27,931 nt of DNA from Candidatus Micrarchaeaceae archaeon (GCA_038881415.1 JAVZPY010000001.1:1-27931), one strand, 5' to 3'. Counted from the first letter of the stretch, positions 22,363-25,359 are shown. The notes: generated by a model not told the origin, from the letters alone. Translations and numbers: made by a program.

Positions 22363-23079
22363 CTATATGCTGCTTCTTTCTTTGCCTCTTATATCTGCAG
22401 CTTTTATATTTACTGCTTTTCCGGCACTTGCAAATTTTAATTTGAGAAGCTCTTCATAAAGTTTTGATTCTCTTGGGTTATCTGCTTTGTTTATTACCAA
22501 CCTAATATTATCCGCGTGTAAATCATTCACAGCAAGAGATATATCTGGCATTGAAGCTTCTACTTGCGATTGCACTACGTAACATTGAAACGGGTCAAGA
22601 TTTTCAGTTTTAAATGCAGCAGAATAATTTGGCTCGCCTGGTTTTACTATAAACAGATAGTGCTCTTTTTCGTTTTTTATGCCTTCCATCTTTTTGGCGT
22701 CCAATAATTTACCCTCAACTTTTAATTCCGGAAATTCTTCTGTTAAAACATTTAGCTGAATTTGCAAATTTTTGCTCTCTAACTCTTCTTTCGTGGAAAA
22801 CTCAATTGACTTGAATTGGTTTATGAGTGTTTCCTTGAGTTCTTCTTCAGCATTGCCATTATTTTTTATTACTGAAAACACTTTACCCATTGCTCCACAG
22901 TCTGTATGAGTGAAAACTGTTATTTTCCTTATGGAATTTTCCTGAACTGCATTCCTTATTTCATCTAATATCGGCTTTACATTTGCTCCAGCATTTCTGA
23001 TTACAAACATGTGCGGGTAATTCTTTTCTATGAATTCGTTAAATCTTCTATCCATGCAGAATATTCCAAGTTCTTCCAT
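22363..23079 (-). CDS. Beta-class carbonic-anhydrase-like zinc protein with an extra C-terminal domain
   Basis: CMDRR (CxDxR), RNAG, HTDCG (HxxC); ATG 23079 with GTGA SD preferred over 23097. Confidence 0.75.
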   Translation of the reverse strand: MEELGIFCMDRRFNEFIEKNYPHMFVIRNAGANVKPILDEIRNAVQENSIRKITVFTHTDCGAMGKVFSVIKNNGNAEEELKETLINQFKSIEFSTKEELESKNLQIQLNVLTEEFPELKVEGKLLDAKKMEGIKNEKEHYLFIVKPGEPNYSAAFKTENLDPFQCYVVQSQVEASMPDISLAVNDLHADNIRLVINKADNPRESKLYEELLKLKFASAGKAVNIKAADIRGKERSSI

Positions 23080-23107
23080 GAAATCACGCGCAAGCATACA
23101 AATGAAA

Positions 23108-23372
23108 GTGAACTACCCCGACCTTGCAGACGTAGCGAAAGCCCCATCCGCAACTTTTGAGTTTCCTGCTTCAAAGGCAATGCTTGCTTTCACATGCTGA
23201 ATGATTTTTATGTATTCGAGCATGATACTTGCAGACGCATAATCCTCTGAGATAGTTTAACCTGCGTTCCGCAGGCGAACCTTTTTGGCAATAACATTTA
23301 CAGCAACAACTATAAACACTTTTGCCCGTTTTCATCCCCTTGCCAAGTCAAGGGTACTTCCCGCTCACTCAG
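23108..23372 (-). mobile_element. Non-autonomous IS200/IS605 (tnpB/IS1341-like) mini-element: left end, decayed tnpB 3' region and right end
   Basis: Minus strand: TTTAA | CTGAGTGAGCGGGAAG-CCCTTG/CAAGGG hairpin-GATGAAA ... TGAAGCAGGAAAC ... GCAAGGTCGGGGTAGTTCAC end; frameshifted TnpB-like peptides KRFACGTQVKLSQRI and EDYASASI...ATSARSG*. Confidence 0.65.
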
Positions 23373-23378
23373 TTAAAA

Positions 23379-23386
23379 TTTATAAA
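23379..23386 (-). promoter_or_regulatory. Putative TATA box (TTTATAAA) with an A-rich BRE-like upstream sequence
   Basis: Consensus TATA just upstream of the mini-element left end, facing the CA-like gene. Confidence 0.55.
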
Positions 23387-23422
23387 TGCTTTTAGCGCAC
23401 CAAAATAGCTAATTTTTTAACC

Positions 23423-24595
23423 TTAAGGCTGCACCCAGTCTATTTCATAGTATTCATATTGGCTTCCTGGGAGCTCTATGCGTTTCACTTTGTAGTATGT
23501 AACGGCAGTCTCCCTGTCTGCAATTGCAATTATTAGTTCGCATCCGCTTTCTGAAGACTGCATTATAACTGAGGAGAGTTCTGCACCGCCTATATATTCC
23601 TCCTCACTCAATGATAGCATTGCAAGACTAGGCGTAGCATTGGAAGGGTTTTCAGTTCCTTGGCCCTTTCTATGGTAAAGATAGAAAGTTATGGGCAACT
23701 TCTTTTTCCTACTTTTTCCTGGTATTGCAAGTATGAAAGTTTTCCTTACCGAATGCGCCACCCTTATTGCGCGGGCCCATTCTGAAGTTAAGAGCTTCGA
23801 ATCGCGTGGAAATACATGCAATACGTGCTTTGAATGAAGCCATTCACTATTTTTATCCTCTGGAAGCGCGCCGGGAAAATAAATCCTGAAGTTAGTGCCG
23901 AATTTGAATCCTGTCTTTATTATATATCCCTTCGACCTCCAATCAACATATACAGAATACAATTTTGGGAAATCTTTCCTCCTTTCAGAGCATATGCGCA
24001 TTATGTCTTTATATGAAAGGTTGCGCACTTTTAGGATGCCTAGGTCCATCAAGAAAAGCGTTTCATATGCGTCCAATTTTGCCAGGCTTCCCCTTGAGCT
24101 TGCCTTATAGTTACCATACTGACCTATCCAAAACTTTCTATAAAGCTCGGCCCCACCTTCAGCTTCTTCTACTAGGGTTATAAGATCATCTGTAAAAAAT
24201 ATTCCAGTAAGGTTTTTCTGCGGAAGCTTGAGTTTTGATGCGGGATATTTTTTGGGCTGCTTTAACTGTTGGTGCTTAGGGGTGGAATTTGCCTCTGGTA
24301 TTTTTGCTATCAAACCGCGCTCACGCCAATCTTTGAATGTTAGATATCTTGCCATGAACTTTTTAGAAGAAGAGAACTCTGCGGCGAGTTCTGGCATGCT
24401 CAATGGTGTTCCATCTTTGTTTGTGCATTCTGCAGATCTAACATCCATTAGGTACATTGCTTCAACTATGTCGAGCTTTATTGTGCTGCCATCCCTTTTT
24501 CCTATATAGCCGTTTGTTAGGATGTCAACAGTGGATTGGTCTACAGCACTTATTATTCTGGTATGAGGATCGTATTGTATCTTTAGGCTTGGCAT
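23423..24595 (-). CDS. endA: tRNA splicing endonuclease, three-unit epsilon2 type (390 aa)
   Basis: KTGFKFGTNFRIY (Tyr), LHSKH (His), SVRK (Lys) triad; WIGQYGNYK loop; ATG 24595 overlaps the dph5 stop (TGATG). Confidence 0.92.
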   Translation of the reverse strand: MPSLKIQYDPHTRIISAVDQSTVDILTNGYIGKRDGSTIKLDIVEAMYLMDVRSAECTNKDGTPLSMPELAAEFSSSKKFMARYLTFKDWRERGLIAKIPEANSTPKHQQLKQPKKYPASKLKLPQKNLTGIFFTDDLITLVEEAEGGAELYRKFWIGQYGNYKASSRGSLAKLDAYETLFLMDLGILKVRNLSYKDIMRICSERRKDFPKLYSVYVDWRSKGYIIKTGFKFGTNFRIYFPGALPEDKNSEWLHSKHVLHVFPRDSKLLTSEWARAIRVAHSVRKTFILAIPGKSRKKKLPITFYLYHRKGQGTENPSNATPSLAMLSLSEEEYIGGAELSSVIMQSSESGCELIIAIADRETAVTYYKVKRIELPGSQYEYYEIDWVQP

Positions 24596-25359
24596 CACCA
24601 TTCCCCTTCTAGCAGCAGCCCTGTTAGCTCTGCCTCTATATATGTGAGCTCTGCAGGCACTATAATAGAATTCAGGCCATCAGTATATTTTATGTTTTGT
24701 GCATCAGAAAGCCTGCCTTTTACTACTGATTGACCTTCTATGCCTATGTTATGCAGAAATATAACCTTTGAGTTTTCATTTAGTATGCCTTTCTGGTATT
24801 TTTTCTCAGCTGCATGCATTACTTCGAATGCCTCTTTGAAACTCATTGAGCGGCTTTTCTTTGAGTCGTAATCAAATAGCAGCAACGTATGCGCCCCAGC
24901 TGTTGAGTTGCCCAGAACAGTTTCATAAAACGAAACAGGATGGTAATGCTCGCTCCACGACGGAACCGTGGCTATGCGCCCGAATCTATAAAAATCAAGC
25001 ATGCTTTCCCCAATAGCAGCTGAAGCTATTGAACTTGAATGAACAACAAGCCATTTAGCGCCGGCCTTTTTTGCCTCAGCTAGAAGTGTTTTGTGAGTTG
25101 TCGCTACCAGCGGATCACCCGGAACAAGTACTGCTACATCTGATGACACCGCTTTTTTTGCTAGCAAACTTGCTCCTTCTTCCAAATCGTATCTTGCTAG
25201 GGGCTTTGGCTCCACGCCTATTTCCCTTGAAACTTCAAGCAGGGACTCTTTTGAAAGCAGGCTTGTGTATGAATCTATGTATGCTTCAGAAGACGAGCAT
25301 ATGCGCTTCGCATTTGGGGATAGCTCGCCAGAAATGCCCATACCAACAAGATACAACAT
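24595..25359 (-). CDS. dph5: Diphthine synthase
   Basis: MLYLVGMG, D.YTS, GDPLVATTH, FYRFGRIATVP, HTLLLFD motifs. Confidence 0.93.
   Translation of the reverse strand: MLYLVGMGISGELSPNAKRICSSSEAYIDSYTSLLSKESLLEVSREIGVEPKPLARYDLEEGASLLAKKAVSSDVAVLVPGDPLVATTHKTLLAEAKKAGAKWLVVHSSSIASAAIGESMLDFYRFGRIATVPSWSEHYHPVSFYETVLGNSTAGAHTLLLFDYDSKKSRSMSFKEAFEVMHAAEKKYQKGILNENSKVIFLHNIGIEGQSVVKGRLSDAQNIKYTDGLNSIIVPAELTYIEAELTGLLLEGEW

What the first reader, a model, noticed from the sequence alone, without database searches (positions are those of the whole stretch)
23088..23377. Orphan TnpB omegaRNA-like locus: protein-less IS200/IS605 mini-element with a target motif and potential guide
Seen on the minus strand: TTTAA (23377-23373) directly precedes a left end with a hairpin (GGGAAGTA-CCCTTG-ACTTGG-CAAGGG-GATG). 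About 180 nt of hairpin-rich sequence with frameshifted TnpB C-terminal-like peptides follows, then the right end GCAAGGTCGGGGTAG-TTCAC (ending 23108), whose TAG closes the tnpB-like frame. Known: TnpB omegaRNAs overlap the tnpB 3' end and right end, the downstream flank is the guide, and TTTAA is the TAM reported for a Sulfolobus TnpB. Inference: the deletion removed the protein genes but kept roughly the omegaRNA part, behind a TATA box. It could supply a trans guide (TTTCATTTGTATGCTTGCGC) to a TnpB, Cas12f-like or nuclease-dead TnpB protein encoded elsewhere, targeting the empty site at the CA-like gene promoter. The right-end hairpin looks partly decayed, so an inert relic is also plausible.
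Basis: partly seen in the sequence, partly recalled or inferred. Interest (0 to 1): 0.75.

Follow-up and report, generated by a model that had tools for sequence, protein, structure and literature searches.

The report
Gene-less IS605 mini-transposon with guide-RNA scaffold
This 265-base stretch is a gene-less miniature copy of a TnpB-carrying IS200/IS605 transposon in a tiny (Micrarchaeota-like) archaeal genome; it kept the transposon ends, a promoter and the guide-RNA scaffold, which is a real but already described kind of element.

Summary

**What it is**
- Window 23372-23108 (minus strand) is a 265-nt internally deleted IS200/IS605 element.
- It sits directly 3' of TTTAA and ends in GTAGTTCAC.
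- It belongs to a family of about 10 decayed copies in this 0.56-Mb, 67%-complete genome.
- Full-length parents (tnpB alone, or tnpA plus tnpB) occur in related Micrarchaeota MAGs.

**What it keeps**
- The left-end (LE) hairpin.
- The LE-borne BRE/TATA.
- The last about 72 codons of tnpB, in one frame with one internal stop. The tnpB TAG lies 5 nt before the end.
- The complete 3' structured RNA region, which shows covariation in 19 copies. The window copy keeps 30 of 35 pairs, but one long-range helix is broken.

**Insertion site**
- Orthologous beta-CA-like genes in relatives show the uninterrupted site.
- The element therefore landed between that gene's conserved TATA box and its leader.

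**What argues for decay**
- No intact cognate tnpB or tnpA is found in the assembled genome.
- No other target of the guide exists in the assembly.
- No sequencing runs were listed, so expression is untested.

**Verdict**
- It is most likely a decaying non-autonomous element. A working trans guide is possible but unsupported.
- Gene-less IS200/IS605 elements with omegaRNAs (PATEs, standalone omegaRNAs) are published.
- This scan has already found the same kind of element on other genomes.

The parts
23379..23392 (-). Host BRE/TATA (AAAGCATTTATAAA) of the beta-CA-like gene, now separated from the gene by the insertion
   Evidence: The same motif (AAAGCnTTTTTAGA) lies about 40 nt before the ATG of orthologous CA-like genes in 4 related genomes. 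Its promoter function is inferred.
23373..23377 (-). TTTAA target site / transposon-adjacent motif
   Evidence: Precedes 27 of 30 distinct left ends of the family as extracted; two more read TTTAAC, a 1-nt offset. It is the TAM of SisTnpB1 in the literature.
23108..23372 (-). Whole 265-nt non-autonomous IS200/IS605 element
   Evidence: Boundaries come from own-genome and related copies. It equals reference element positions 1-52 plus roughly the last 215 nt of the 1435-nt full-length element L034:318-1752.
23321..23372 (-). Left end, with subterminal hairpin CCCTTG/CAAGGG at 23354-23337
   Evidence: 88% identical to the LE of the full-length element. The hairpin appears in the MFE fold. The stem shows compensatory variants in other copies.
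23310..23325 (-). Element-borne BRE/TATA-like motif (GCAAAAG..TTTATAG), the likely tnpB promoter, now about 30 nt upstream of the first scaffold helix
   Evidence: An A-rich plus TATA-like block at LE +50 to +68 is conserved in nearly all left ends, and in L034 it lies about 35-45 nt before the tnpB ATG. Promoter activity is inferred.
23113..23331 (-). Remnant of the tnpB 3' end: one frame, internal TAA at 23259-23257, native stop TAG at 23115-23113
   Evidence: 34/50 identities to residues 391-440 of P0001.
23108..23296 (-). omegaRNA-like structured scaffold. Helices: 23279-23257, 23253-23165, 23245-23176, 23240-23180, 23225-23192, 23162-23115, 23148-23129
   Evidence: RNAalifold consensus and pair counts on 19 copies. 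Held-out covariance model hit at 134.6 bits, E=1e-35. The window copy keeps 30/35 pairs, with helix 2 at 2/5.
23108..23148 (-). Right end: subterminal hairpin (GCGGAT...GTCTGC) and terminal cleavage motif TTCAC (23112-23108)
   Evidence: The hairpin covaries (column pair 162/183: CG 5, UG 5, AU 4, UA 3). The family consensus end is GTAGTTCAC; most of 47 right ends carry it, with a few point variants.
23088..23107 (-). Flank that would serve as the omegaRNA guide (TTTCATTTGTATGCTTGCGC). It is the native 5' leader of the CA-like gene.
   Evidence: Position is by analogy with ISDra2/SisTnpB1 omegaRNAs. There is no other TTTAA-adjacent match in the assembly.
22363..23079 (-). Downstream beta-carbonic-anhydrase-like gene. 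The true start is ATG 23079, preceded by the SD-like GTGAT at 23087-23083.
   Evidence: Pfam Pro_CA E=9e-11. Orthologues start at the equivalent ATGGAA.
23423..24601 (-). Upstream tRNA-intron endonuclease (EndA-like) gene
   Evidence: Pfam tRNA_int_endo and tRNA_int_endo_N.

Best explanation
Window 23372-23108 (minus strand) is a non-autonomous, internally deleted IS200/IS605-family element of the PATE/MITE type.

**Origin and anatomy (shown)**
- Its parent is a roughly 1.4-1.9-kb element (tnpB alone, or Y1 tnpA plus tnpB) found in Micrarchaeota and co-occurring archaea.
- One deletion joined about 60 nt of the left end (TnpA hairpin plus the tnpB promoter) to the last about 215 nt. That part holds the tnpB C-terminal codons, the overlapping omegaRNA scaffold and the right end.
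- It inserted 3' of TTTAA, between the conserved TATA box and the leader of a beta-CA-like gene.

**How it works (inferred from ISDra2, ISGst and SisTnpB1)**
- A Y1 TnpA supplied in trans would excise or insert it as single-stranded DNA, using the two subterminal hairpins.
- Excision would reseal TTTAA|TTTCATTTG.
- Transcription from the host TATA or the element's own TATA would give a scaffold RNA that runs into the flank.
- A cognate TnpB supplied in trans could use that flank as a guide. It would cut the emptied site and restore the element by recombination.

**Likely state in this genome**
- The family looks old and decaying and no partner protein is seen.
- The copy is therefore most likely a relic that now merely forms part of the CA-like gene's upstream region or 5' leader.

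I put the identity at about 0.95 and the relic state at about 0.6.
For: **Repeat family**
- About 10 copies occur in the own genome.
- 9 of the 60 related genomes searched also carry it.

**Full-length relatives**
- They carry TnpB (Pfam OrfB_IS605 plus Cas12f1-like_TNB; ISDra2 TnpB structure match E=1.5e-8).
- They also carry Y1 TnpA (PF01797 E=4e-34).
- They share the LE at 88% and the RE at 81% identity with the window copy.

**Ends and remnant**
- TTTAA precedes 27 of 30 left ends as extracted.
- The family consensus right end is GTAGTTCAC, carried by most of 47 right ends, and it is followed by unrelated sequence in all of them.
- The tnpB C-terminal remnant is 68% identical and closed by TAG.

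**Structured 3' region**
- 35 pairs, with 95.5% of cells paired.
- 9 pairs show double-sided changes, and 0 of 500 shuffles reach the observed values.
- Slid controls pair in 31-52% of cells.
- Many G-U pairs fit only the minus-strand transcript.
- Fold z-score is -3.7 on the minus strand against -1.7 on the plus strand.
- The held-out covariance model hits at 134.6 bits.

**Empty orthologous site:** found in relatives.

**Signs of decay**
- No intact cognate tnpB or tnpA in the assembly.
- The tnpA on C23 is frameshifted and truncated.
- Copies are 8-25% diverged from one another.
- The window copy is the only one of 19 with helix 2 broken.
Against: - The genome is only 67% complete, and repeats break this assembly. 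Contigs C18 and C72 end inside copies, so an intact tnpB or tnpA could lie in the unassembled part.
- The window copy is the best of seven own-genome matches to the covariance model. It keeps a promoter-like motif just upstream of the scaffold, which would also fit a still-used RNA gene.
- Expression, processing, TnpB binding and mobility were not observable. No sequencing runs were listed.
- The relatives that show the empty site are only 41-48% identical in the CA-like protein, so they do not date the insertion.
Confidence: 0.85

Rival explanations
1. A working stand-alone omegaRNA gene. The mini-element is transcribed from its retained LE promoter. Its RNA is loaded in trans by a cognate TnpB encoded in the unassembled third of the genome. 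The RNP cuts the empty donor site (TTTAA + TTTCATTTGTATGCTT...), so the element is retained or copied without encoding any protein.
For: - The complete scaffold is retained with 30/35 pairs.
- It gives the best covariance-model score of the own-genome copies.
- A conserved BRE/TATA lies about 30 nt upstream of helix 1.
- Several independent deletion derivatives in three other genomes break at reference positions 1232-1246, just upstream of the scaffold.
- Published precedent: PATEs often encode omegaRNAs, and standalone omegaRNAs work in trans.
- The assembly is incomplete, with contig ends inside copies.
Against: - No intact cognate tnpB is found.
- Helix 2 is broken only in this copy.
- Many sibling minis keep only 46-133 nt of the 3' end, so the scaffold is not generally required.
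- The copies are diverged.
- There are no expression data.
Confidence: 0.25
2. Co-opted leader or promoter. The element's main present role is in cis. Its internal promoter, or read-through from the displaced host promoter, now drives the beta-CA-like gene, with the 265-nt structured RNA as a 5' UTR that modulates expression.
For: - The insertion lies exactly between the conserved TATA box and the conserved leader/SD of the gene.
- Both TATA-like motifs point towards the gene.
- The CA-like ORF is intact and matches Pro_CA.
Against: - Nothing shows selection on this arrangement.
- No relative shares the insertion.
- An intact ORF is equally expected after a neutral or mildly harmful insertion.
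- Other copies sit in unrelated contexts.
Confidence: 0.12
3. It is not a mobile element but a housekeeping or regulatory structured RNA (SRP RNA, RNase P RNA, riboswitch or snoRNA) in the EndA / CA-like intergenic region.
For: The region folds significantly better than shuffles (z = -3.7).
Against: - No Rfam family reaches its threshold. The best hits are snoRNA models at E about 5.
- The sequence is multi-copy with transposon-type boundaries.
- It is homologous to the 3' end of tnpB genes.
Confidence: 0.01

Closest known systems
PATE-like non-autonomous IS200/IS605 elements that encode omegaRNAs (Geobacillus stearothermophilus ISGst families; Meers et al. 2023, PMC10055086)
   Same: - No protein gene.
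- LE and RE with subterminal hairpins, shared with tnpB/tnpA-bearing elements.
- Insertion next to a fixed motif.
- A retained omegaRNA region that would need a TnpB in trans.
   Different: - The host is archaeal (a Micrarchaeota-like reduced genome) and the TAM is TTTAA.
- No cognate tnpB or tnpA is visible in the assembled genome.
- One scaffold helix has decayed.
- Expression was not shown here, whereas the Geobacillus omegaRNAs were seen in RNA-seq.
Standalone omegaRNAs of OMEGA systems (Altae-Tran et al. 2021, as summarised in PMC10691335)
   Same: A mobilised guide-RNA locus without effector or transposase. The published idea is that it works in trans with a compatible effector.
   Different: Those were described in genomes that also hold effector-containing loci, and they were tested experimentally. 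Here no partner was found and nothing was tested.
Sulfolobus islandicus IS200/IS605 elements with SisTnpB1 (bioRxiv 10.1101/2023.03.06.531077)
   Same: An archaeal element with TTTAA as LE-adjacent target and TAM, and a guide RNA derived from the right end.
   Different: - Sequence relatedness to SisTnpB1 was not tested here.
- The Micrarchaeota clade TnpB carries Gln instead of the RuvC-II Glu (AYQND).
- The window copy has no tnpB at all.
ISDra2 TnpB-omegaRNA (Deinococcus radiodurans; PDB 8EXA/8H1J)
   Same: The parents' TnpB aligns to it over residues 106-399 (E=1.5e-8). The omegaRNA overlaps the tnpB 3' end and the RE, and the guide is the flank.
   Different: The TAM differs (TTGAT against TTTAA). 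The scaffold sequence is unrelated (no Rfam or model match), and the RuvC-II motif differs.

Membership tests
IS200/IS605-family non-autonomous element (PATE/MITE type) | Subterminal hairpins at both ends instead of terminal inverted repeats | tested here: met
   The LE hairpin is CCCTTG/CAAGGG and the RE hairpin is GCGGAT../..GTCTGC. Both covary across copies. The end sequences CTGAGTGAGC... and ...GGTAGTTCAC are not inverted repeats.
IS200/IS605-family non-autonomous element (PATE/MITE type) | Insertion 3' of a fixed short motif, in one orientation, without target-site duplication | tested here: met
   TTTAA precedes 27 of 30 left ends as extracted; two more read TTTAAC, a 1-nt offset. The right flanks are unrelated to each other and are not TTTAA.
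IS200/IS605-family non-autonomous element (PATE/MITE type) | Ends shared with elements that encode Y1 TnpA and/or TnpB | tested here: met
   Full-length L034 (tnpB), L033 and L035 (tnpA + tnpB) share the LE and RE. Pfam and PDB confirm the proteins.
IS200/IS605-family non-autonomous element (PATE/MITE type) | No intact protein-coding gene inside | tested here: met
   Only a 72-codon tnpB tail, with an internal stop and no N-terminus.
IS200/IS605-family non-autonomous element (PATE/MITE type) | Evidence of insertion: an orthologous site without the element | tested here: met
   The CA-like gene upstream regions of 4 related genomes read as the joined window flanks. These relatives are distant (41-48% protein identity). 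A same-species empty allele was not available.
TnpB omegaRNA | Encoded on the tnpB strand, overlapping the tnpB 3' end and the right end | tested here: met
   By homology to the full-length elements.
TnpB omegaRNA | Conserved secondary structure supported by covariation | tested here: met
   (family level). The window copy keeps 30/35 pairs, with helix 2 at 2/5. The held-out model hits at 134.6 bits.
TnpB omegaRNA | Guide is the variable flank immediately 3' of the transposon end, matching the TAM-adjacent empty site | tested here: met
   The flanks diverge right after TTCAC. TTTAA plus this flank is the reconstructed empty site.
TnpB omegaRNA | The RNA is expressed and processed to a defined species | not testable with these tools
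   No sequencing run was listed for this DNA.
TnpB omegaRNA | A compatible TnpB is encoded in the same genome | tested here: not met
   Only N- and C-terminal fragments occur inside the minis, plus a degenerate remnant of another family on C48. The assembly is 67% complete, so absence is not proven.
TnpB omegaRNA | Forms an RNP with TnpB that cuts TAM-flanked targets | not testable with these tools
   This needs biochemistry.
Housekeeping RNAs (SRP RNA, RNase P RNA) and other Rfam families | Match to the curated covariance model | tested here: not met
   only tRNAs elsewhere in the window. In the region itself the best hits have E about 5.

The most novel reading that the evidence does not exclude
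The mini-elements of this reduced, probably symbiotic archaeon have no partner genes of their own. They could be serviced by TnpA/TnpB (or their RNPs) from the host or neighbour archaea, which carry intact copies of the same IS family. MAGs labelled Thermoplasmata and 'Nitrososphaeria' from the same hot springs encode TnpB 67-80% identical to the Micrarchaeota one, with near-identical ends. That would be cross-organism trans-complementation of a guide-RNA-only transposon.
Probability: 0.03. Interest if true: 0.8.

Novelty: new member of a known kind. Interest (0 to 1): 0.28.

Why it matters
- It is a clean, well-bounded example of a guide-RNA-only IS200/IS605 derivative in a DPANN-type archaeon with a genome under 1 Mb.
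- It shows that these elements and their TTTAA-type TnpB family reach even the smallest archaeal genomes and insert into promoters there.
- It yields a covariation-supported omegaRNA scaffold of about 170-190 nt for an uncharacterised archaeal TnpB clade with an unusual RuvC-II motif. That could interest people who mine compact thermophilic editors.
- It does not change the current understanding of how such elements work.

Tried and rejected
- **Rfam.** Searches at gathering and at permissive thresholds found no SRP, RNase P, riboswitch, group I intron or omegaRNA family. Only chance-level snoRNA hits appeared.
- **Public sequencing runs.** Two queries listed none. Expression, RNA ends, empty-site reads and unassembled full-length copies could therefore not be examined, and read laying was not used.
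- **Second (trans) target of the 20-nt guide in the genome**. No TTTAA-adjacent match exists. The closest is 1 mismatch in 16 nt on C24, without a TAM.
- **Partner proteins in the own genome.** I searched with PF07282, PF01385 and PF01797 and ran tblastn with two TnpBs and one TnpA from relatives. Only fragments, one tnpA pseudogene and one degenerate TnpB remnant of another family turned up.
A curated set of collinear copies was needed.
- **Is the scaffold always kept by deletion derivatives?** Rejected. Retained 3' lengths run from 46 to about 215 nt.
- **Same-species empty allele.** Not obtainable. Even 'same genus' genomes are only about 45% identical in the neighbouring protein.
- **Geometry of the unusual TnpB active site.** Not tested, because the structure tools return no coordinates.

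Full report
**1. Observation**

- TTTAA lies at 23377-23373.
- A left end starts at 23372, with the hairpin CCCTTG-ACTTGG-CAAGGG at 23354-23337.
- About 180 nt of structured sequence follows.
- The right end reads ...GCAAGGTCGGGGTAGTTCAC and stops at 23108.
- The region lies between a tRNA-intron-endonuclease gene (23423-24601, minus) and a beta-carbonic-anhydrase-like gene (22363-23079, minus).
- The minus-strand RNA folds better than shuffles (z = -3.7). The plus strand does not (z = -1.7).
- Rfam gives nothing for the region.

**2. It is a repeat with transposon boundaries**

The window's genome is 559,596 bases in 73 contigs, 67% complete, with 42.6% GC.

It holds about ten related pieces, on C1, C2, C6, C18, C23, C27, C28, C32, C52 and C72.
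- Every left end in the own genome is preceded by TTTAA.
- Nearly every right end across the family stops at GTAGTTCAC, and unrelated sequence follows.
- Across the own genome and relatives, 27 of 30 distinct left ends follow TTTAA as extracted. Two more read TTTAAC, a one-base offset.
- 47 distinct right ends diverge immediately after the terminal motif.
- There is no target duplication and there are no terminal inverted repeats.
- On C23 the left end is followed by a Y1 transposase fragment (PF01797, E=1e-12).

**3. Full-length parents**

Nine of the 60 related genomes searched hold the family. All of these genomes are 0.6-1.1 Mb.

| Locus | Genome and contig | Content |
|---|---|---|
| L034 | G054:C7 | Complete 1435-nt element: TTTAA, LE, tnpB, RE |
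| L033 | G033:C35 | tnpA fragment plus tnpB |
| L035 | G029:C32 | Full Y1 tnpA (PF01797, E=4e-34) |

- The 443-aa TnpB (P0001) matches OrfB_IS605 and Cas12f1-like_TNB.
- It also matches the solved ISDra2 TnpB structure (E=1.5e-8).
- Named records place the family in Candidatus Micrarchaeaceae/Micrarchaeota MAGs from DRTY hot springs.
- It also occurs in MAGs labelled Parvarchaeota, Thermoplasmata and Nitrososphaeria.
- The window organism is therefore very probably a Micrarchaeota-type (DPANN) archaeon. This is an inference from kinship and genome size.

**4. Anatomy of the window copy**

Against the 1435-nt reference, the window copy has positions 1-52 at 88% identity and positions 1254-1388 at 81% by BLAST.
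- By translation the retained 3' part reaches back to about position 1220.
- The frame reads ...AVNVIAKKVRLRNAG*TISEDYASASIMLEYIKIIQHVKASIAFEAGNSKVADGAFATSARSG, then TAG.
- This is collinear with the TnpB tail, with 34 of 50 identities to residues 391-440.
- The remnant is therefore not frameshifted. It has one internal TAA and lacks everything upstream.
- The left end also carries a conserved A-rich plus TATA-like block (GCAAAAG..TTTATAG, 23325-23310).
- In full-length elements this block lies about 35-45 nt before the tnpB start. It is present in nearly all left ends.
- I infer that it is the tnpB promoter. In the mini-element it now sits about 30 nt upstream of the first scaffold helix.

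**5. The omegaRNA-like scaffold**

I aligned the last 190 nt of 19 collinear copies: full-length and mini, from seven searched genomes plus six further named MAG records.

RNAalifold gives 35 pairs in 8 helices. Pair counts:
- 95.5% of cells are paired.
- Nine pairs show changes on both sides.
- Covariation score is 0.216 against 0.149 for shuffles, with 0 of 500 shuffles reaching it.
- Slid controls pair in only 31-52% of cells.

The strongest covariation is in helix 1. It lies 146-172 nt from the end, inside the tnpB coding region, with CG/GC/GU and UA/GC/CG alternations. That is far beyond what TnpA needs at a right end.

Frequent G-U pairs fit only the minus-strand transcript.

A covariance model built without any own-genome sequence hits the window once. 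The hit is at 23108-23296 (minus strand), full length, 134.6 bits, E=1e-35. It is the best of seven own-genome hits.

- The window copy keeps 30 of 35 pairs.
- The exception is the long-range helix 2 (CUCGC/GCGAG in all others; AUCUC/GCAGG here), with only 2 of 5 pairs.
- It is the only one of the 19 copies with that defect.

**6. Insertion site**

Orthologous CA-like genes were found in 19 of the 60 other family genomes searched.

In four of the closest, the upstream region reads AAAGCnTTTTTAGATTTTAA-AGnTTATTTGTnTGCTTGCGTGATTTnATGG. This is the window's left flank (AAAGCATTTATAAATTTTAA) joined to its right flank (TTTCATTTGTATGCTTGCGCGTGATTTCATGG).

So the element landed 3' of TTTAA, between the conserved BRE/TATA and the conserved leader/SD of this gene.
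- It pushed the promoter 265 nt away from the gene.
- The gene's true start is ATG 23079.
- Both the host TATA (23386-23379) and the element's own TATA point through the scaffold into the gene.
- The scaffold would therefore be transcribed either on its own or as a 5' leader. This is inference; no RNA data were available.

**7. Is there a partner?**

None is found in the assembled genome.
- tblastn with two TnpBs of the family finds only residues 3-72 and 391-440 inside mini-elements.
- PF01385 has no hit.
- The PF07282 hit on C48 is a degenerate remnant of another family. Only its TNB domain still scores.
- The only Y1 transposase (C23) carries a 10-nt tandem duplication and is truncated before the catalytic half.
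- The 20-nt guide has no other TTTAA-adjacent match in the assembly.
- Own-genome copies are 8-25% diverged from one another and mosaic.
- In genome G054, which has an intact tnpB, minis are 89-96% identical to it.
- Deletion derivatives keep anything from 46 to about 215 nt of the 3' end. The scaffold is therefore not generally required, although several independent deletions break just upstream of it (reference positions 1232-1246).

Caveat: the assembly is 67% complete and two contigs end inside copies. An intact element could be unassembled.

**8. Mechanism and verdict**

Identity is secure at about 0.95. It is a PATE/MITE-type IS200/IS605 derivative that keeps its ends, a promoter and the omegaRNA scaffold.

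The mechanism follows ISGst, ISDra2 and SisTnpB1.
- TnpA in trans would excise it and reseal TTTAA|TTTCATTTG.
- A TnpB in trans, loaded with scaffold plus flank, would cut that empty site and restore the element by recombination.

For its present state I favour a decaying relic (about 0.6). Alternatives are a working orphan guide (about 0.25) and a co-opted leader or promoter (about 0.12).

**9. Novelty**

[quoted passage not shown] Standalone omegaRNAs functioning in trans are also summarised in PMC10691335.

Earlier reports of this scan reached the same conclusion for similar elements in other genomes.

This is a new member of a known kind. Its small points of interest are the DPANN host, the promoter insertion, and the parents' TnpB clade with Gln in place of the RuvC-II Glu.

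Noticed in passing
L034:416-1744 (P0001) and eight other full-length TnpBs (L059, L060, L061, L062, L064, L077, L033): All full-length TnpBs of this clade read AYQND where ISDra2 TnpB has its RuvC-II catalytic Glu. Gln takes its place and an invariant Asp lies two residues on. The RuvC-I D and the RuvC-III DRD are kept. This is probably one of the published RuvC-II 'rearranged' branches (PMC10691335), but I did not test which, nor whether the enzyme is active.
   Followed up: partly
L059, L063 ('Nitrososphaeria' MAG DRTY1_bin.15); L077, L082 (Thermoplasmata/Thermoplasmatales MAGs); many DRTY3_bin.13 loci: The same IS family occurs in MAGs of other archaeal phyla from the same hot springs as the Micrarchaeaceae MAGs. 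TnpB is 67-80% identical, the ends are near-identical and the target is TTTAA. This points either to transfer between DPANN symbionts and their neighbours or hosts, or to binning errors.
   Followed up: no
G000:C52:3483-3528 (+): A 46-nt micro-element follows a TTTAA. It consists of 16 nt of left end fused to the last 30 nt of the right end at a GCGG(G)AAG microhomology shared by both ends.
   Followed up: no
G000:C23:79-347 (L014): A left end followed by a tnpA pseudogene. A 10-nt tandem duplication (GCGTTACAAT) shifts the frame, and the gene stops after about 100 residues, before the catalytic tyrosine region. No right end is nearby.
   Followed up: partly
G000:C48:3427-4179 (L009:1063-1815): A degenerate remnant of a different TnpB family, interrupted by stops. 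Only the zinc-ribbon/TNB domain still scores, and its RuvC-III motif reads NSN rather than DxD. It abuts a CoxS-like 2Fe-2S gene on the other strand.
   Followed up: partly
window 23079-23107 and 23373-23392; L098, L099, L100, L101: The promoter and short leader of the beta-CA-like gene are conserved at the nucleotide level across genomes whose proteins are only 45-48% identical. The conserved motifs are AAAGCnTTTTTAGATTTTAAAG and TGCTTGCGTGATTTnATGG. This suggests a regulated promoter or leader.
   Followed up: no
G000:C2:22496-22855 and G000:C18:11-349: Two 340-360-nt siblings keep the first about 50 codons of tnpB (MSNAEKISRIREKGEATSAKRKYQTAKVYEIKFDKSKISKQ...) fused to the last about 95 nt of the element. 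They share the same 10-nt right flank at a contig end, so they may be one locus assembled twice.
   Followed up: no
reference positions 1232-1246 of L034:318-1752, in L016, L025, L026, L036, L047, L052: Deletion derivatives in three different genomes have different 5' breakpoints (reference positions 211, 491, 503, 511) but nearly the same 3' breakpoint, just upstream of scaffold helix 1. This may be a deletion hotspot or selection for an intact scaffold.
   Followed up: no
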